From: a virus
UHGV virus genome: UHGV-0126007
DNA: 21,383 bases
Strand: one strand, 5' to 3'
In this document: positions 2,901-21,168 of the stretch, one piece after another
Position numbering within the stretch: position 1 is the first letter of the stretch
Layout of the letters: the number at the start of each line of letters is the position of its first letter
Notes under the pieces: generated by a model
The model's input: only the letters and a program-made list of their open reading frames with translations
Databases searched by the model: none
Told to the model about the DNA's origin: nothing
Position numbers and translations under genes: made by a program

Positions 2901-3698
2901 TTAAACTGCTAGTTGCAATTGCATTTCAAAGCGGTCGCGTTGTTCACAATACGCAAGAGAACCAGGGCTATTGTGTGCCTCAATCCGTTCTACCATTAAT
3001 GCTGCGCGTGTCTCTTTACTTGCAGGTGCATAAGCCCCAGACCAGGCTTTATCAATACCGATGTTTCGAGCGACGTTCGTACTATCTGCGCTGGCTAAGG
3101 GTAATTTTGTGAATATCAGCGGATTTAACATGCGCAATCCATGTAGTTTCGTAACCGGCTGACCATGCCCATCAACAATGTGACGAATCAGGTCTTTCAT
3201 TCTGGCTACCGCAAGAGTTGGGCGCTTTACGTCATAGTCGCCACAACTACCGATAGCCACTCGCGGAAACTCATTGCACAAATGAATAAATCGCGCGTCA
3301 CTTTCATTCATGTGCCACACTGGAACGCCAGCTAGTTTTCCGTGAGGCCACTCATTCAGAAGCGCATCATTTTCCTCCTCTCCGCCATCAATAATATCCG
3401 GGATAATGGCAAAATCGAATCCTGGGTGATTCTTCCAGCGAGCAACAAACTCGTAGTAATCGCTCCAGTCGATTTTGTTTTTGCCAGCTGCTTTCCAGGC
3501 GGTGAATGCACCGTTGTCCAGCGCGAACGACTGACAGTATTCAGCCGCGAGATTGATCTGGCCTGAATGCGCAAAACTGATAAACGCATGTCGCCCTTTC
3601 CATGCTCTCATTGCGCACGTATCAGGAGTAATAGGCCCACCGTGGTAGTGAATCATCTCACTCTCCTTTGATGCGAATGCCAGTAGCGCGGATTGCAT
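2901..3698 (-). CDS. TGT-fold protein (tRNA-guanine transglycosylase superfamily); candidate DpdA-like DNA 7-deazaguanine transglycosylase
   Basis: 265-aa ORF with FALDNGAF (compare TGT substrate-pocket motif DSGGFQ) and ADSTNVARNIG (compare TGT DCVLPTRSGRNG around the catalytic Asp). Sits in the accessory region of the PL operon. Confidence 0.4.
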   Translation of the reverse strand: MQSALLAFASKESEMIHYHGGPITPDTCAMRAWKGRHAFISFAHSGQINLAAEYCQSFALDNGAFTAWKAAGKNKIDWSDYYEFVARWKNHPGFDFAIIPDIIDGGEEENDALLNEWPHGKLAGVPVWHMNESDARFIHLCNEFPRVAIGSCGDYDVKRPTLAVARMKDLIRHIVDGHGQPVTKLHGLRMLNPLIFTKLPLASADSTNVARNIGIDKAWSGAYAPASKETRAALMVERIEAHNSPGSLAYCEQRDRFEMQLQLAV

Positions 3699-4065
3699 CG
3701 ATGACTTCAGAAACTTTGTATGCCATTACCGTTTGGTAATCATCGTGAAAATCTGTTCGATGAAGCATGCTGCTACGTTCCGGGAGCAGTATTTCCCGCG
3801 CTTCCAGTTCTGCAATGCGCTTTTTTGCTGCTTCCAGTTCATCCAGTAATTCCAGCACGGTAGCCGGATTAGCCTTGGCAACAAAATCCCGGACTGGCTT
3901 ACAATCAATCTCCGCAATGGGTTGATACGATGTGTAGCCATGCTGTCTTGTATAACTACCGTGACGAATAACGAAAAAATCACCATTTATTTTTTTAGCC
4001 TGCCACTTATCTTCACCGGCTTTCTCTGCCGCTTCACGCAGTGCCTGAGAGTTAATTTCGCTCAC
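3658..4065 (-). CDS. Ead/Ea22-like family protein (coiled-coil), 135 aa
   Basis: Contains ANPATVLELLDELEAAKKRIAELEA; the same motif (ANPATVLALLDELEAKDQRIAVL) occurs in the plus-strand paralogue at 12474-12887. 3' end overlaps the next ORF. Confidence 0.5.
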   Translation of the reverse strand: MSEINSQALREAAEKAGEDKWQAKKINGDFFVIRHGSYTRQHGYTSYQPIAEIDCKPVRDFVAKANPATVLELLDELEAAKKRIAELEAREILLPERSSMLHRTDFHDDYQTVMAYKVSEVIDAIRATGIRIKGE

Positions 4066-6857: not shown

Positions 6858-7148
6858 TTAGTGATTCAGACCGTTGCCGCGCCCGTCGAGAAAAACTTCC
6901 ACGAGCAAGTCACGGGTATAAGTGCGCTCGATGCCGCGATGCAGATAAAGCCGTCCGCGTAAATTAGCTGATGCAGTCCAGGTACCATCTTTGTGTTTGA
7001 CCAGCATTCCTGGCATGACCGCACCGCGATTAACGGTCTGCGTTCCGTAATGTTGATGAACCATAAAAACTCCTGCCCGTAAGCTGGGCTGCTGAACATA
7101 TAAAGACTTCTGCGCGTATTCAGGCGGTGGATGGCCGCCGGTTGTCAT
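6858..7148 (-). CDS. Hypothetical protein, 96 aa; first gene of the leftward early operon (kil/N position)
   Basis: First ORF downstream of the predicted PL; no arginine-rich motif, no similarity to N, Kil or cIII that I can recognise. Confidence 0.4.
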   Translation of the reverse strand: MTTGGHPPPEYAQKSLYVQQPSLRAGVFMVHQHYGTQTVNRGAVMPGMLVKHKDGTWTASANLRGRLYLHRGIERTYTRDLLVEVFLDGRGNGLNH

Positions 7149-7339
7149 AACTAAGCCGCCTCGTTGAAGCGACTAAGGTATGAAATGTTGAGTTGATTTC
7201 AGCTGGTCACACCGACGTTCACGCGTCCGTTTCATCCCTCGCACTACCCGAAGCCTGCTGAAATTCAAGCTGCGGATCTAAGCGGTCATCGCAACGGTGA
7301 AACAGGTGGTTACCGTATCGTTGTGTCGTTGCGATGAAT

Positions 7340-7420
7340 TTATTTAAAACTATAGTTGTTTTATCGTCAACAACAAAAGTTGTTTTATCGGTTGTTTTAA
7401 ATATAACTGGTTGTATTTAG
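7340..7420 (-). promoter_or_regulatory. PL promoter with OL operators (leftward early promoter)
   Basis: On the minus strand: -35 TTGACG (plus 7365-7370), 17-nt spacer, -10 TTAAAT (plus 7342-7347). Promoter and spacer are nearly identical to the predicted PR (TTGACT-17 nt-TAATCT). Flanked by repeated GTTGTTTTA / AACAAC half-sites similar to the OR half-site GGTTGTT. Confidence 0.6.
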
Positions 7421-7508
7421 GATGGATTTATTTTGTGACTTGCATCGCATAGCGATAACTGAAGTGAGGTCGTGGTGGTTTTTTGAACGGTGTGTGATGA
7501 GGGGAGGG

Positions 7509-7536
7509 CAAAATAAAACCCGGCACGGTGGCCGGG
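7509..7536 (-). terminator. Rho-independent terminator ending the cI-cargo operon (tImm-like)
   Basis: Stem CCCGGC / GCCGGG (7519-7536) with 6-nt loop; on the minus strand it is followed by UUUUAUUUUG. Sits downstream of the 147-aa gene and upstream of PL. Confidence 0.7.
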
Positions 7537-7613
7537 TTTAGATGATTGGTTAAGAGCGAGGGTAATGGGGAATGAAAAATCGCTTTACCTAATGCAAGGG
7601 TGCGAGCATTTTC

Positions 7614-8057
7614 TTAAGCACTAAAGAAAAAGTACATTGATAGCTTATAAAGTCCTGTTCCTGCAGCGATGATTGCTGGAACACCAAGCAATACCGCAAG
7701 CTTTGCGTCTGAAATCTTTCTATCGACAGCATCACTTGATGGCTTGTTTGTTAAGGATTCTTTTATAGAGTCCAGACGTGCAAGAATAGTTATCATATTT
7801 TTGTCGATAGCTTTAACGTCTGTTTTAAGTTCATCAACGTCTCGTTTGATATGAGCAACATCGGACTCCAGTTTTGCAACTTTTTCAGGCATGTTATCAC
7901 TCCCAGACCCACTGCTACCACTTGATTGTAGCATGTCCCATCTTTTTCCAGATATACCTGCTAGCTGGGAAGACGCACTGGAGTGCAAACAAAATGATTT
8001 TGCCGCCTTTGCAATTTTATCATTTAGGTTTGGAGCTTCGTAATAATCGTGTTTCAT
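7614..8057 (-). CDS. Tail-anchored coiled-coil membrane protein, 147 aa (rex-position cargo gene B)
   Basis: Gly/Ser-rich linker (SSGSSGSGSDN), heptad-like coiled coil (KVAKLESDVAHIKRDVDELKTDVKAIDKNMITILARLDSIKESL), C-terminal hydrophobic helix (LAVLLGVPAIIAAGTGLY). Architecture resembles XhlA-type phage membrane proteins (analogy only). AT-rich by eye. Confidence 0.5.
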   Translation of the reverse strand: MKHDYYEAPNLNDKIAKAAKSFCLHSSASSQLAGISGKRWDMLQSSGSSGSGSDNMPEKVAKLESDVAHIKRDVDELKTDVKAIDKNMITILARLDSIKESLTNKPSSDAVDRKISDAKLAVLLGVPAIIAAGTGLYKLSMYFFFSA

Positions 8058-8069
8058 AATTAATTACGA

Positions 8070-8333
8070 TTAGTTTGTTTTAGCTTTGTCATGCTGGTCG
8101 CGAATGAAGTCAGCCAATTTAAGCATCAATTCTTCGGGCATTCTAATGGTTGCAATGTTGTACTTTATGTTCTCAACATCGTCACTTTCATCAACAGGCC
8201 ATTCAGTTACATTATGAAAAAAAGAAATTGAACCTAGGCGCTGAGAGCCGTCACCAAACGAAGAGTAGCCAAACGCGTCGGCGTATGCATCGACACAGTT
8301 ATTTGATTTTTTAACAAGTGTTTTATTACTCAT
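8070..8333 (-). CDS. Hypothetical small soluble protein, 87 aa (rex-position cargo gene A)
   Basis: ORF directly downstream of cI on the same strand and 12 nt upstream of gene B; AT-rich; no recognisable family. Confidence 0.45.
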   Translation of the reverse strand: MSNKTLVKKSNNCVDAYADAFGYSSFGDGSQRLGSISFFHNVTEWPVDESDDVENIKYNIATIRMPEELMLKLADFIRDQHDKAKTN

Positions 8334-8415
8334 TTTTTGCCTTTCCCGTAATGTTATTTTTTATAAGGTATTTTCTTCAGCGTATTACCCAAAAGCCTCA
8401 TCAACACGCGGCTGA

Positions 8416-9105
8416 TTATCCGTGTTTTCTGTACGTCTGCGGCATGCTCCCAATAACCTTACCGAATATGAATACCCGGTTCATCTCGTCTTTCTCGATC
8501 GGGTCCCACGGTGAGTAGCTCTTGTTATCAGAGATAACCAGTAGCTTATCCTTCATCATTTGCAGGCGCTTTACATGGGCGGTGTCGTCATACAGAAACG
8601 CATAGATGCCATCACCGTCGAAAGATTTAACAGTGATATCAACGAACAGCAGGTCACCTGGTTCGATCGTCCCTGACATGCTGTCACCTCGCACGTTAAT
8701 GATGCGGATATTTTCCGCCTTCCTGCCATCGAACATGTGACGAGCATCGTCAAACGAGTACTCAACCGAGCGTAGAACTTCTACAAACTCACGGTTGATT
8801 ACACCTGGCCCGGCACTGACTTCTATATCAAGAACGTCAATTTTGAAGTATTTGGAATGGCTGACAGTTGATTGTATTGGTTGCACTGTACTGTCTGACA
8901 TATTTCCAACGCCAGAAGATAACCATTCTGCGCGTACACCCAAAGCGTTCGCGATCTCCACGATTTTAGTTGTTTGGTTAGCTTTCCCTGTTTCGATTTT
9001 CTGAATAGCAGCCTGGCTAACCCCGACCAAATCCCCAAGCGCCTTTTGTGTAAGGCCTCGCGCTAATCTGGCTTCTTTAAGTCTTTCTGAGAGTGTTGTT
9101 TTCAT
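8416..9105 (-). CDS. CI-like prophage repressor (N-terminal XRE-type HTH, C-terminal S24/LexA-like autopeptidase domain), 229 aa
   Basis: HTH region LTQKALGDLVGVSQAAIQKIETGK; C-terminal domain with the S24 nucleophile motif (NVRGDSMSGTI) and downstream Lys (HVKRL); divergent from a Cro-like gene across an operator region. Confidence 0.85.
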   Translation of the reverse strand: MKTTLSERLKEARLARGLTQKALGDLVGVSQAAIQKIETGKANQTTKIVEIANALGVRAEWLSSGVGNMSDSTVQPIQSTVSHSKYFKIDVLDIEVSAGPGVINREFVEVLRSVEYSFDDARHMFDGRKAENIRIINVRGDSMSGTIEPGDLLFVDITVKSFDGDGIYAFLYDDTAHVKRLQMMKDKLLVISDNKSYSPWDPIEKDEMNRVFIFGKVIGSMPQTYRKHG

Positions 9106-9209
9106 AGATCAAATGTACAACCAAGGTTTTATTTCATCAAACGAAAATGGTTGTTGACTAAAAACAACCATAGTTTTAATCTTGATTCGGATTAACCACG
9201 GAGGTTGTT
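9106..9209. promoter_or_regulatory. OR region: divergent PRM/PR promoters with operators
   Basis: PR: -35 TTGACT (9154-9159), 17-nt spacer, -10 TAATCT (9177-9182). Operator with 9-bp inverted repeat ATGGTTGTT-N7-AACAACCAT (9147-9171) overlapping the -35; SD GGAGG before cro. Confidence 0.65.
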
Positions 9210-9440
9210 ATGAACCCAGCAATCAAAACAGCGATCAATATCGTTGGTTCACAAAAGAAACTAGGCGATGCCTGCGAAGTTTCACAGCAGGCCGTCTATA
9301 AGTGGCTTCACAACAAAGCAAAGGTATCCCCTGAACATGTCGGCAGCATTGTTACGGCTACTGGTGGAGTTGTGAAGGCATACCAGATTCGCCCGGATCT
9401 TCCGAAGTTGTTTCCACACACCGAAAAGAACGCAGCTTAA
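9210..9440 (+). CDS. Cro-like HTH regulator (Cro/YdaS-type), 76 aa
   Basis: Small HTH protein (GDACEVSQQAVYKWL) transcribed divergently from the repressor from the PR-like promoter. Confidence 0.7.
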   Translation: MNPAIKTAINIVGSQKKLGDACEVSQQAVYKWLHNKAKVSPEHVGSIVTATGGVVKAYQIRPDLPKLFPHTEKNAA

Positions 9441-16744: not shown

Positions 16745-17827
16745 TTAGAACTGGTAAACCATACCTACAGCAACGATATCATCGGTAGCAACGCCAGATG
16801 CTTTCGTGAAATCGCTCTTATCAATCAGGTTGATTTTGTAGTCAACAAAAGTGGACATATTTTTGTTGAAGTAATAGGTTGCACCTACATCAACATATTC
16901 AACCAGGTCCTGATCACCCCAAACACCCAAGTCTTTTCCTTTAGAATGCAGGTAAGCAACGGATGGACGCAGGCCGAAGTCGAACTGATATTGTGCAACA
17001 GCTTCGAAGTTTTGTGCTTTGTTGGCAATATGGTTATTACCAAAAACAGTCATGTTCTGGGTTTCAGAATAGGTGGTGGCCAGATAGATGTTGTTCGCAT
17101 CATATTTCAGACCAGCTGCCCATACTTCAGCATTTTGACCAGAAGCATTCAGACCGTTGTTACCGTAGATAACCTGATTATTAGTGCGATCAGATTTAGC
17201 ATAGGTTGCACCCACGCCGAATCCTTCATACTCATAAGTAGTTGAGAAACCGAAACCATCGCCATTAGCTTCAGTTACTTCATTTCGGTCATTTTTGCCC
17301 TGATACTGAGCTGCAAAGTTCAGGCCATCAACCAGACCAAAGAAGTCGTTGTTACGATAAGTTGCAACACCTGTGGTGCGACCAGTCATGAATACATCTG
17401 TTTGGGTCCAGGTATCGCCACCGAATTCTGGCAGAACGTCAGTCCACGCACCGATGTCGTATGCTACACCGTAGTTACGGCCGTAATCGATTGAGCCGTA
17501 GTCACCGAATTTCAGGCCTGCAAATGCAAGACGGGTTTTGTCTTTGGAGGAACCTTGAGATTCAGCGCGGTTGCCTTTGAATTCATATTCCCACTGACCG
17601 AAACCAGTCAGTTGATCGTTGATTTGGGTTTCACCTTTGAAGCCAAGACGGGCATAAGTAGTATCACCATCATCTGCATCATTAGAGGAGAAGTAGTGCT
17701 TAGCATTAACTTTCCCGTACAGATCCAGCTTGTTACTGTCTTTATTATAAATTTCAGCTGCCTGAGCAGACATCGCCATCAGTACTGATGCAGCTACAGC
17801 AGAAATTGCCACTGTTAATTTTTTCAT
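16745..17827 (-). CDS. nmpC: Phage-borne general porin of the OmpC/OmpF family (NmpC / Lc type), 360 aa, apparently intact
   Basis: Signal peptide [23 protein letters not shown] then [17 protein letters not shown]...; typical porin beta-strand repeats; C-terminal aromatic (F); same position and orientation as nmpC between quuD and essD in DLP12. Confidence 0.85.
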
Positions 17828-19710: not shown

Positions 19711-21168
19711 ATGAATACATCTCATGTAAGAGTTGTTACTCATATGTGTGGGTTCCTGGTTTGGCTCTATAGTCTTTCAATGTTGCCACCAATGGTTGTA
19801 GCATTGTTTTATAAAGAAAAAAGCCTGTTCGTTTTCTTTATAACTTTCGTTATATTTTTTTGCATTGGTGGCGGAGCGTGGTATACAACTAAGAAATCTG
19901 GCATTCAATTACGTACCCGTGATGGGTTTATTATAATTGTAATGTTTTGGATTTTGTTTTCTGTTATTAGTGCATTCCCTTTATGGATTGACTCAGAACT
20001 TAATTTAACGTTCATTGATGCTCTGTTTGAAGGGGTTTCTGGAATAACAACAACAGGAGCAACTGTAATTGATGATGTTAGTTCATTACCTCGGGCATAT
20101 TTGTACTATCGGTCACAGTTAAATTTTATAGGTGGTTTAGGAGTTATTGTTCTGGCGGTTGCTGTATTGCCATTATTGGGTATTGGTGGTGCAAAGCTTT
20201 ATCAGTCAGAAATGCCGGGGCCATTTAAGGATGACAAACTCACTCCCCGCCTGGCCGATACGTCACGGACACTGTGGATAACTTATTCTTTATTAGGTAT
20301 TGCTTGTATTGTCTGTTATAGACTTGCAGGAATGCCTTTGTTTGATGCTATTTGTCACGGGATTTCCACAGTTTCGCTTGGTGGTTTCTCAACTCATAGC
20401 GAGAGTATCGGATATTTTAATAACTATTTGGTTGAGCTGGTGGCTGGTTCTTTTTCCCTGCTATCGGCTTTCAACTTCACTCTTTGGTATATTGTTATTA
20501 GCAGGAAAACGATAAAACCTTTAATCAGAGATATTGAACTTCGTTTCTTTCTGTTAATAGCCTTAGGGGTGATCATTGTTACCTCTTTCCAGGTCTGGCA
20601 TATAGGTATGTATGACTTGCATGGAAGTTTTATTCATTCGTTTTTTCTTGCCAGCTCCATGCTCACTGATAATGGTTTAGCTACGCAGGATTATGCAAGT
20701 TGGCCCACGCACACGATAGTGTTTTTGCTGTTGTCAAGTTTCTTTGGGGGATGTATAGGTTCAACTTGTGGTGGAATTAAGTCACTTCGATTTCTTATAC
20801 TTTTCAAACAAAGCAAACACGAGATAAATCAGCTTTCTCATCCCAGAGCGTTGTTGAGTGTAAATGTAGGAGGGAAGATAGTTACAGATCGTGTAATGAG
20901 GTCTGTATGGAGTTTCTTTTTTCTTTATACTCTCTTCACGGTGTTTTTTATACTGGTGTTAAATGGTATGGGATATGATTTTCTTACATCATTTGCAACA
21001 GTGGCTGCATGTATTAATAATATGGGATTAGGTTTTGGGGCTACTGCATCGTCATTCGGAGTGCTTAATGACATTGCAAAATGTTTAATGTGCATAGCTA
21101 TGATTCTTGGTCGCCTTGAAATTTATCCTGTTATTATATTGTTTTCAGGTTTTTTTTGGCGCTCCTAA
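19711..21168 (+). CDS. trkG: TrkG/TrkH-family potassium uptake membrane protein, about 485 aa (moron downstream of lysis cassette)
   Basis: MNTSHVRVVTHMCGFLVWLYSLSMLPPMVVALFYKE... matches E. coli TrkG (a Rac prophage gene) from recall; multiple TM segments; very AT-rich. An alternative TTG start at 19693 has a better-placed SD (AGGTGG). Confidence 0.9.
   Translation: MNTSHVRVVTHMCGFLVWLYSLSMLPPMVVALFYKEKSLFVFFITFVIFFCIGGGAWYTTKKSGIQLRTRDGFIIIVMFWILFSVISAFPLWIDSELNLTFIDALFEGVSGITTTGATVIDDVSSLPRAYLYYRSQLNFIGGLGVIVLAVAVLPLLGIGGAKLYQSEMPGPFKDDKLTPRLADTSRTLWITYSLLGIACIVCYRLAGMPLFDAICHGISTVSLGGFSTHSESIGYFNNYLVELVAGSFSLLSAFNFTLWYIVISRKTIKPLIRDIELRFFLLIALGVIIVTSFQVWHIGMYDLHGSFIHSFFLASSMLTDNGLATQDYASWPTHTIVFLLLSSFFGGCIGSTCGGIKSLRFLILFKQSKHEINQLSHPRALLSVNVGGKIVTDRVMRSVWSFFFLYTLFTVFFILVLNGMGYDFLTSFATVAACINNMGLGFGATASSFGVLNDIAKCLMCIAMILGRLEIYPVIILFSGFFWRS

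What the first reader, a model, noticed from the sequence alone, without database searches (positions are those of the whole stretch)
7509..8333. AT-rich two-gene cassette in the rex position, co-transcribed with cI: candidate exclusion or abortive-infection system
Two ORFs (87 aa, then a 147-aa coiled-coil protein with C-terminal membrane anchor) lie directly downstream of the repressor gene on the same strand and end at a strong terminator (7509-7536) before PL. This is the slot lambda uses for rexA-rexB, a known hotspot for prophage defence cargo expressed in the lysogen from PRM. The segment is visibly more AT-rich than the flanking lambda-like DNA, and neither protein resembles RexA/RexB or any family I recognise. 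A small soluble protein paired with a tail-anchored membrane protein suits a sensor plus membrane-disrupting effector pair.
Basis: partly seen in the sequence, partly recalled or inferred. Interest (0 to 1): 0.75.

Follow-up and report, generated by a model that had tools for sequence, protein, structure and literature searches.

The report
Uncharacterised membrane-tethered gene pair behind prophage repressor
Two real, conserved but unstudied genes (a small soluble protein and a tail-anchored coiled-coil membrane protein) sit as foreign cargo between a lambdoid prophage's repressor gene and its terminator, so they are probably made in the lysogen and are a reasonable but untested candidate for a phage-exclusion system.

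Summary
orfA (8070-8333, 87 aa) and orfB (7614-8057, 147 aa) follow cI (8416-9105) on the minus strand. No terminator lies between them, and a strong terminator (7516-7539) sits about 125 bp upstream of OL/PL. Prophages with the same cI but an empty slot show the cargo is exactly 7537-8416. It is AT-rich (GC 0.39, against 0.47 for the window). Both genes are under purifying selection.

orfB has a short head, a Gly/Ser linker, a 7-heptad coiled coil and one C-terminal membrane helix. It belongs to an Enterobacterales-only family of about 158 clusters. In 63 of 78 viral contigs the gene lies just downstream of a repressor gene (cI-type or mnt, the P22 sieA slot). A small partner gene almost always precedes it. 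There are at least four unrelated partner types; orfA is one of them and is very rare. The head changes with the partner type, while the coiled-coil/membrane tails are swapped independently.

Neither protein matches RexAB, SieA, any PADLOC model or any Pfam family above threshold. There is only a weak likeness to XhlA. Function is inferred, not shown. The most likely role is a lysogen-expressed exclusion or abortive-infection module. This is a good experimental candidate, not a demonstrated system.

The parts
8416..9105 (-). cI-type prophage repressor (HTH_3 + Peptidase_S24, 229 aa), first gene of the presumed operon
   Evidence: Pfam PF00717 E 1e-18 and PF01381 E 5e-13; phrog_4 transcriptional repressor; annotated as S24 family peptidase WP_000858975.1
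8334..8415 (-). 82-bp cI-orfA spacer with a GAAAGG ribosome-binding site; no terminator and no consensus promoter
   Evidence: Sequence read; promoter/terminator scan. The comparable cI-bstA operon of BTP1 has an 88-bp spacer that is transcribed through (PMC7067206).
8070..8333 (-). orfA, 87-aa acidic soluble protein (partner type T1), predicted as a beta-sheet followed by a C-terminal helix
   Evidence: phrog_4231 E 7e-54. Only 8 clusters at 50% identity among 1.84 billion proteins. AlphaFold2 pLDDT 80. dN/dS 0.05-0.09.
7614..8057 (-). orfB, 147-aa tail-anchored protein: head (residues 1-~30), Gly/Ser-rich linker (~28-55), coiled coil, one C-terminal membrane helix
   Evidence: phrog_3556 E 2e-58; family alignment A2; AlphaFold2 secondary structure; hydropathy and heptads; dN/dS 0.25
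7749..7892 (-). orfB coiled coil (residues 56-103), seven uninterrupted heptads
   Evidence: 14 of 14 hydrophobic a/d positions; single helix 56-103 in the model
7647..7706 (-). orfB membrane helix (residues 118-137) inside the nearly invariant motif KISDAKLAVLLGVPAIIAxGTGxYK
   Evidence: Kyte-Doolittle 19-residue maximum 1.8 at residue 118; invariant and near-invariant columns in A2
7516..7539 (-). Intrinsic terminator that ends the cI operon; part of the conserved backbone
   Evidence: Also conserved in the empty-slot prophage L019, where homology runs 7101-7536, and directly after orfB in Klebsiella locus L016.
7537..8416 (.). The variable cargo segment: 880 bp here against 122 bp in prophages with the same cI and an empty slot
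   Evidence: blastn of the window against L019; slot polymorphism across E. coli genomes
7342..7386 (-). OL operators (7346-7362, 7370-7386) and PL (-35 at 7365-7370, -10 at 7342-7347)
   Evidence: Operator search; sequence read
9161..9177 (-). OR operator copy between cI and the cro-like gene

Best explanation
Shown: 7537-8416 is horizontally acquired cargo (a moron) inserted between the stop codon of the prophage repressor gene and the repressor operon's terminator. It encodes two genuine proteins.

Inferred, step 1: both genes are transcribed with cI from PRM in the lysogen.

Inferred, step 2: orfB is inserted tail-first into the inner membrane. Its coiled coil, linker and head lie in the cytoplasm. 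The soluble orfA docks on the head.

Inferred, step 3 (the functional guess): the pair is a Rex-like exclusion or abortive-infection module. The variable partner/head unit recognises a cue from an infecting phage. The conserved coiled-coil/membrane tail then oligomerises and perturbs the inner membrane, or a membrane protein in it, so the infection is not productive.
For: Real genes: dN/dS is 0.05-0.09 for orfA and 0.25 for orfB. Both are conserved across genera.

Cargo and hotspot: exact boundaries come from an empty-slot prophage. 198 of 5426 complete E. coli genomes carry the cassette. The same cI allele is followed elsewhere by no cargo, by DUF3800, or by PDC-M63A/B (E 1e-42). GC3 is 0.31-0.39 against 0.50-0.62 in flanking genes.

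Expression in the lysogen:
- There is no terminator between cI and orfA, and the backbone terminator follows the cassette.
- In P22-like phages the orfA homologue overlaps the 3' end of mnt.
- In 63 of 78 IMG/VR loci the orfB-family gene lies downstream of a cI-type or Mnt repressor on the same strand, with many different repressor alleles.
- Precedents exist for this slot: rexAB in lambda, and cI-bstA co-transcription in BTP1 (PMC8585504, PMC7067206). The mnt-gene 16 slot holds sieA in P22 (PMC10883804).

Docking of the partner on the head:
- At least four unrelated partner types exist.
- The head co-varies with the partner type. T1 goes with a YYExPNL head in 6 of 8 loci, T3 with a GKLLVxYS...VGxEF head in 7 of 7, and T4 with a [DY][FY]Px[HY] head in 3 of 3.
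- The same head/partner unit is found on three different tails (alpha, beta, gamma).

The tail as the active part:
- The juxtamembrane and membrane segment is the best-conserved part of the family.
[quoted passage not shown] PF10779 scores E 7e-4 for the phage ENT1 homologue and E 0.05 here; phrog_1193 'hemolysin' scores E 1e-4.
Against: - There is no experimental or transcriptomic datum for these genes, and nothing in the literature searched.
- There is no homology to any known defence protein.
- The XhlA likeness is below Pfam's threshold and could be coiled-coil composition alone.
- Head-partner binding rests on co-variation, not on a structure. orfA homologues in Serratia and Raoultella pair with different heads.
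- Tail-only copies with no partner, next to an AraC-like gene in Pantoea chromosomes, show the module can work outside a prophage operon.
- Almost none of orfB is periplasmic, so a classical surface or periplasmic block of injection is unlikely. This does not by itself favour abortive infection.
- Many other cargo types in this slot have unknown or non-defence functions.
Confidence: 0.4

Rival explanations
1. Superinfection exclusion by blocking DNA entry (SieA-like). The tail-anchored protein sits in the inner membrane and, from the cytoplasmic face, interferes with the channel or host membrane protein that incoming phage genomes use. orfA modulates it or gives it specificity. Infected cells survive.
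For: The cassette occupies the exact sieA slot (between gene 16 and mnt) in P22-like phages that lack sieA. [quoted passage not shown] The membrane segment of orfB is highly conserved, as expected if it contacts a conserved membrane partner.
Against: orfB has one membrane helix and about 10 residues beyond it, so it has no periplasmic domain. It lacks SieA's three membrane helices and the FxRYPxEAxxFNK motif. The same family occurs in lambdoid, P22-like and siphovirus tail-region contexts, which argues against a single injection machinery as target. A variable cytoplasmic partner is not explained.
Confidence: 0.2
2. A lysogen-expressed accessory function unrelated to phage exclusion. Examples: a membrane or stress-physiology factor for the host, in the manner of the tail-anchored stationary-phase proteins ElaB/YqjD; or a modulator of the prophage's own induction or lysis timing, in the manner of an XhlA-like holin helper.
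For: Partner-less copies sit next to an AraC-like regulator in Pantoea chromosomes. There is a weak XhlA likeness. Other cargo stacked in the same slots includes BamE-like lipoproteins and secreted proteins. Lambda's own lysogen-expressed genes include the non-defence genes lom and bor (PMC7067206).
Against: The modular diversification of partner and head, and the rapid evolution of the head (dN/dS 0.58 against 0.05-0.25 elsewhere), are more typical of conflict systems. The gene pair is not in a lysis cassette in any locus examined. The resemblance to ElaB/YqjD is recalled architecture only; no Pfam DUF883 match was found.
Confidence: 0.25
3. An addiction (toxin-antitoxin-like) pair that stabilises the prophage. 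The membrane protein is toxic and orfA neutralises it, or the reverse.
For: Two small, tightly coupled genes, one of them a small membrane protein, in a mobile element. Decayed copies exist: the in-frame orfA::orfB deletion fusion P0070, and a truncated orfB in Raoultella loci L013/L014.
Against: No toxin or antitoxin family match. Most prophages with the same cI lack the cassette and are evidently stable. Tail-only copies exist without a partner.
Confidence: 0.1
4. Chance ORFs or decaying remnants with no function.
For: All databases annotate them only as hypothetical proteins.
Against: Strong purifying selection. Conserved pairing and synteny across at least 10 genera and about 158 clusters at 90% identity. 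A confident fold for orfA.
Confidence: 0.02

Closest known systems
Phage lambda RexA/RexB
   Same: Same genomic slot (cI, cargo, terminator, OL/PL). Presumed transcription from the repressor promoter. A two-gene design with a soluble protein plus an inner-membrane protein.
   Different: No sequence or Pfam similarity. RexB is reported as an ion channel (PMC8585504) and is a multi-pass membrane protein (general knowledge), whereas orfB has one C-terminal helix and a long coiled coil. Both proteins are much smaller than RexA/RexB. Function is untested.
Phage P22 SieA
   Same: In P22-like phages the cassette sits in the sieA slot, directly downstream of mnt. Both are inner-membrane (predicted here) cargo expressed in the lysogen.
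   Different: SieA is a single protein with three membrane helices and the FxRYPxEAxxFNK motif (PMC10883804). None of these features is present here.
BstA of Salmonella prophage BTP1
   Same: Cargo immediately downstream of cI. For BstA, co-transcription with cI has been shown (88-bp spacer there, 82 bp here). Both are tightly associated with repressor loci across many prophages.
   Different: BstA is a single large cytoplasmic DNA-associated protein with an aba self-immunity element. There is no homology.
XhlA (PF10779; PBSX/SPbeta-type lysis cassettes of Bacillus phages)
   Same: Same architecture: an N-terminal coiled coil and a single C-terminal membrane helix in a protein of about 90 aa. 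Weak profile matches to the orfB family.
   Different: Scores are below the Pfam gathering threshold (14-20 bits against 34.7). XhlA sits beside a holin and endolysin in late operons, whereas orfB sits in repressor operons with a variable head and partner.
Mycobacteriophage Butters gp30/gp31 and Sbash gp30/gp31 (recalled from general knowledge; Butters paper PMC7542560 listed but not read)
   Same: Prophage-expressed pairs of a soluble and a membrane protein near the immunity region that defend against heterotypic phages, with no sequence similarity to Rex.
   Different: Different phyla and unrelated sequences. Their membrane components are multi-pass. The comparison is by analogy only.

Membership tests
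Lambda RexAB abortive-infection system | RexA-family and RexB-family proteins detectable by sequence profile | tested here: not met
   No Pfam, NCBIfam or PADLOC match for either protein beyond coiled-coil noise
Lambda RexAB abortive-infection system | Multi-pass membrane component (RexB) | tested here: not met
   orfB has a single hydrophobic segment at residues 118-137
Lambda RexAB abortive-infection system | Located between cI and the terminator upstream of OL/PL, same strand as cI | tested here: met
Lambda RexAB abortive-infection system | Excludes phages by membrane depolarisation on infection | not testable with these tools
   Requires phage challenge and membrane-potential assays
P22 SieA superinfection exclusion | About 160-aa inner-membrane protein with three (type A) or four membrane helices and the motif FxRYPxEAxxFNK | tested here: not met
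   One membrane helix and no such motif in either translation; features taken from PMC10883804
P22 SieA superinfection exclusion | Position between gene 16 and mnt/gene 9 of P22-like phages | tested here: met
   For the homologous cassettes in UPF_BP1, E. coli L002, Serratia L011 and IMG/VR loci L064 and L097. Not applicable to the window itself, which is lambdoid.
XhlA (Pfam PF10779) | Score at or above the Pfam gathering threshold (34.7 bits) | tested here: not met
   14.1 bits (E 0.053) for orfB and 20.2 bits (E 7e-4) for the ENT1 homologue
XhlA (Pfam PF10779) | Encoded next to a holin and endolysin in the late lysis cassette | tested here: not met
   All examined loci are in repressor operons, the sieA slot, the tail region or chromosomal contexts
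XhlA (Pfam PF10779) | N-terminal coiled coil plus a single C-terminal membrane helix | tested here: met
Any catalogued anti-phage defence system (PADLOC-DB 2.0.0) | Significant match to a system component model | tested here: not met
   orfA has no match. orfB has only coiled-coil matches with E above 0.003. Partner types T2-T4 and the other tail types also have none. Neither protein is in the DefensePredictor supplementary tables.

The most novel reading that the evidence does not exclude
The cassette is one allele of a previously unrecognised, Enterobacterales-wide family of modular prophage immune systems that ride in repressor operons. A tail-anchored coiled-coil protein acts as the membrane effector. 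Its short N-terminal head recruits one of several unrelated small cytoplasmic sensor proteins. Sensor/head units and effector tails are shuffled independently by recombination at the Gly-rich linker, which gives lysogens rapidly changing exclusion specificities.
Probability: 0.3. Interest if true: 0.75.

Novelty: new variant of a known kind. Interest (0 to 1): 0.5.

Why it matters
The stretch between cI and PL is a classic hotspot whose best-known cargo (rexAB, bstA) are abortive-infection systems. Most of its cargo is still uncharacterised.

This pair is present in about 3.6% of complete E. coli genomes, including O26, O103 and other Shiga-toxin-producing lineages. The wider orfB family spans many enterobacterial genera. 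It is small (about 0.9 kb) and easy to test.

If it excludes phages, it would add a very compact type of effector: a single tail-anchored helix plus a coiled coil. It would also be a clear natural example of sensor/effector module shuffling. That matters for predicting phage-therapy host range and for understanding competition between prophages.

If it does not exclude phages, it is still a widespread lysogen-expressed membrane factor of unknown role.

Tried and rejected
- Profile searches of both proteins against Pfam, NCBIfam, PADLOC and PHROGs gave only function-unknown PHROG families and coiled-coil noise.
- Profile searches against PDB sequences gave only generic, largely trimeric coiled coils for orfB and nothing for orfA.
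- The BFVD search gave nothing below E 1e-3. The AFDB50 library was unavailable.
- An exhaustive HMMER search with the orfA profile found only 8 clusters, all single-domain proteins of about 95 aa. No fusion partner was found that could hint at function.
- P0070, an orfA::orfB fusion, was considered as Rosetta-stone evidence. It was rejected because it is a single-genome in-frame deletion between two DVENIK-coding repeats.
- Homology between partner types T1 and T3 was tested by hhalign and rejected (probability 0.5%).
- Rfam and tRNA scans of the window found nothing.
- Literature searches for the locus tags, PHROG ids or a tail-anchored prophage defence found nothing. The Brenes and Laub 2025 paper is not held in the library.
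- Only one isolated phage carries the T1 cassette (UPF_BP1). Three Enterobacter phages carry a T4 version.

Full report
**1. What is in the sequence**

The window is a lambdoid prophage. It is 100% identical to one integrated next to ybhC in E. coli QDFD216.

On the minus strand, the repressor gene (8416-9105; HTH_3 + Peptidase_S24) is followed by:
- an 82-bp spacer;
- orfA (8070-8333, 87 aa);
- a 12-bp spacer;
- orfB (7614-8057, 147 aa).

A strong intrinsic terminator lies at 7516-7539 (-15.1 kcal/mol, z = -3.6). Operator-like copies of AAAACTATRGTTGTTTT mark OL (7346-7362, 7370-7386) and OR (9161-9177). A TTGACG-17-TTAAAT promoter (PL) lies at 7342-7370 (sequence). No terminator-like site lies between cI and orfA on the coding strand.

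The cassette has GC 0.39 and GC3 0.31-0.39. For comparison, the window has GC 0.47 and the flanking genes have GC3 0.50-0.62.

**2. Boundaries, and the slot as a hotspot**

A prophage with the identical cI protein but no cargo (L019) is homologous to the window over 7101-7536 and 8417-9300. The cargo is therefore exactly 7537-8416 (880 bp, against 122 bp in L019), and the terminator belongs to the backbone.

198 of 5426 complete E. coli genomes carry the full cassette. Many more carry the same cI allele (95-97% nucleotide identity; identical protein in the loci fetched) with an empty slot. Others carry the same cI with different cargo: a DUF3800 protein, or a two-gene set that matches the PADLOC candidate system PDC-M63A/B at E 1e-42. 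Prophages that share this backbone but have a different (XRE-family) repressor carry DUF6414 or ASCH cargo in the same slot.

Strain CREC-544 has a cI that is 98.7% identical at the protein level, but its cassette proteins are only 75-78% identical. Cassette alleles therefore move independently of the repressor.

The literature already describes the region between cI and N as a mosaic hotspot for cargo expressed in the lysogen. Examples are rexAB and bstA; cI-bstA is one transcript with an 88-bp spacer (PMC8585504, PMC7067206).

**3. The genes are real**

Against diverged alleles, dN/dS is 0.05-0.09 for orfA and 0.25 for orfB. The orfB head evolves fastest, at 0.58.

- orfA corresponds to phrog_4231. 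orfB corresponds to phrog_3556, but matches only positions 128-267 of that 276-position profile.
- orfA is a very small family: 10 clusters in the word-indexed search, and 8 clusters at 50% identity among 1.84 billion representatives. All members are 89-99 aa and single-domain.
- The orfB family has about 158 clusters at 90% identity, all in Enterobacterales. Genera include Escherichia, Salmonella, Citrobacter, Klebsiella, Enterobacter, Cronobacter, Pantoea, Erwinia, Serratia, Rahnella and Rouxiella.

**4. Anatomy of the proteins**

orfB has the following parts:
- a short helix (residues 11-27);
- a disordered Gly/Ser-rich linker (28-55);
- one long helix (56-103) with a perfect heptad register, 14 of 14 hydrophobic a/d positions;
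- a KPSS break;
- a final helix (109-146) whose hydrophobic core is residues 118-137.

Only about 10 residues follow the membrane segment and there is no signal peptide. The expected topology is therefore tail-anchored, with nearly all of the protein in the cytoplasm. This is an inference.

In the family alignment the best-conserved stretch is KKPSxDAVDKKISDAKLAVLLGVPAIIAIGTGxYK, which covers the juxtamembrane and membrane segment. The N-terminal head is not alignable across the family.

**5. Genomic context of relatives**

The orfB family almost always has a tightly coupled small gene upstream and sits in places typical of lysogen-expressed cargo.

- **Downstream of a cI-type repressor, with many different repressor alleles (both S24-type and short CI-type):**
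  - E. coli;
  - Klebsiella (L016-18);
  - Citrobacter (L022-25, three repressor alleles);
  - Salmonella (L021, L026-29);
  - an Enterobacteriaceae MAG (L030);
  - Phaseolibacter (L035);
  - the isolated Enterobacter phage ENT1 (L037).
- **Downstream of mnt, with overlapping stop and start codons, in P22-like phages.** This is the slot that holds sieA in P22. Loci: UPF_BP1, E. coli L002, Serratia L011, and IMG/VR L064 and L097 (PMC10883804).
- **As an opposite-strand insertion in siphovirus tail regions:** Pantoea, Raoultella and Serratia grimesii.
- **Partner-less copies beside an AraC-like gene** in Pantoea chromosomes.

In an automated survey of 78 IMG/VR loci with an intact orfB-family ORF, 63 had a recognisable cI-type or Mnt repressor gene just upstream on the same strand. 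Many of those loci are near-identical, so the count is not one of independent events.

**6. Modularity (the main new result)**

Four partner families were recognised by similarity: T1 (orfA, 87-99 aa), T2 (136-153 aa), T3 (93-95 aa) and T4 (119-127 aa, with two CxxC pairs). Some members are assigned only by architecture: the Citrobacter 136-aa and L108 141-aa T2-like proteins, and the L095 88-aa T1-like protein. No similarity was detected between families. None matches Pfam or PADLOC.

The head of the membrane protein follows the partner type:

| Partner | Head motif | Loci with that head |
|---|---|---|
| T1 | YYExPNL..KLE.AAKSSSLH | 6 of 8 |
| T2 | short, variable (about 35 aa) | no shared motif established |
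| T3 | about 70 aa, GKLLVxYS..G..VGxEF | 7 of 7 |
| T4 | [DY][FY]Px[HY] just before the Gly run | 3 of 3 |

The coiled-coil/membrane tail comes in at least three types:
- alpha, as in this window;
- beta, ...QILWTI..., as in UPF_BP1;
- gamma, ...KILDALNGLVLK, as in ENT1.

These tail types are combined freely with head/partner units. The T1 unit is found on alpha (window, L064), beta (UPF_BP1) and gamma (L097) tails. DNA similarity between the window and UPF_BP1 stops at about codon 57 of orfB, which is the head/linker boundary.

I infer two things. The partner binds the head. The partner/head unit and the tail are separate functional modules that recombine at the conserved linker/MLEARVAKLE junction.

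**7. Comparison with known systems**

- **RexAB:** same slot and the same soluble-plus-membrane design. There is no sequence relationship, and orfB is single-pass. Not a member.
- **SieA:** same slot in P22-like phages, but SieA has three membrane helices and a motif that are absent here. Not a member.
- **BstA:** same slot only.
- **XhlA:** same architecture, with sub-threshold matches. PF10779 scores 14-20 bits against a 34.7-bit cut-off; phrog_1193 scores E 1e-4; one UniRef cluster is auto-named 'Hemolysin XhlA'. XhlA is described as a membrane protein predicted to act with the holin XhlB (PMC5589764). This is a lead toward a membrane-perturbing role, not a demonstrated homology.
- **PADLOC:** no model matches.

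**8. Mechanism and confidence**

That this is lysogen-expressed accessory cargo encoding a membrane-tethered two-protein complex is well supported. I put expression and cargo status at about 0.85 and complex formation at about 0.6.

What the complex does is inferred. I rank the possibilities as follows:
- Rex-like exclusion or abortive infection, with the partner/head as sensor and the tail as membrane effector: about 0.4.
- Block of DNA entry: about 0.2.
- A non-defence lysogenic-conversion or prophage-regulatory role: about 0.25.
- An addiction module: about 0.1.
- An artefact: about 0.02.

The reasons for favouring a conflict function are:
- the diversification pattern (variable sensor-like units, a fast-evolving head, shuffled tails);
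- the slots occupied (rex, sieA);
- co-residence in the slot with a predicted defence system.

**9. Verdict**

The proteins belong to no characterised family. The kind of thing they are (repressor-operon cargo with a soluble protein and a membrane protein) is known. This is a good, compact experimental candidate of moderate interest.

Noticed in passing
window 7537-8416, compared with loci L019, L038, L039 and L040: The slot behind this cI allele is polymorphic across E. coli. The identical cI protein is followed by no cargo (the commonest state), a DUF3800 protein, or a two-gene set matching the PADLOC candidate system PDC-M63A/B. Annotation also lists BamE-like lipoprotein, ASCH and N-acetyltransferase cargo. 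DUF6414 occurs behind a different repressor on the same backbone.
   Followed up: partly
window 7065-7341: PL is followed by a 277-nt leader with no ORF and then directly by kil (6858-7064). There is no N-like gene, although related Klebsiella and Salmonella prophages have an N_peptide gene here. No Rfam family matched. How early antitermination works in this phage is unclear.
   Followed up: partly
L002 5001-5405 (protein P0070): An E. coli P22-like prophage carries an in-frame fusion of orfA residues 1-57 to a beta-type orfB tail. It apparently arose by deletion between two DVENIK-coding repeats. It is a single-genome variant and is probably a decay product.
   Followed up: yes
L016-L018, 4300-4419: Klebsiella prophages have an extra 39-aa single-helix membrane peptide (MSDLVIPILITLLIIGLVGIVLRLDKVFFKRKDERDDFE) between cI and the T2 partner gene.
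   Followed up: no
L022 4474-4854; L002 5496-5864; L011 5957-6262; L064 3464-3838: Further small exported or membrane proteins are stacked downstream of the cassette in other phages. They are a BamE-like lipoprotein, two signal-peptide proteins, and a protein with an N-terminal membrane helix plus a coiled coil. This suggests the slots accumulate envelope-directed cargo.
   Followed up: partly
L031-L034 and L070 (Pantoea), around 3000-3800: Partner-less orfB-family genes lie beside an AraC-like regulator in Pantoea chromosomes. In some loci they are preceded by a second, unrelated 99-aa tail-anchored coiled-coil paralogue.
   Followed up: no
window 16745-17827 (-) and 19711-21168 (+): The prophage carries an OmpC-family porin gene between the Q-like antiterminator and the lysis genes. 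It also carries a trkG potassium-transporter gene after the lysis genes. Both are further lysogenic-conversion cargo of known types.
   Followed up: no
L016 5303-5509 (-), L022 4886-5110 (-), L026 4294-4500 (-), L037 3824-4051 (-): In many related prophages a 68-75-aa ORF lies on the opposite strand between the cassette's terminator and PL. It is absent from this window.
   Followed up: no
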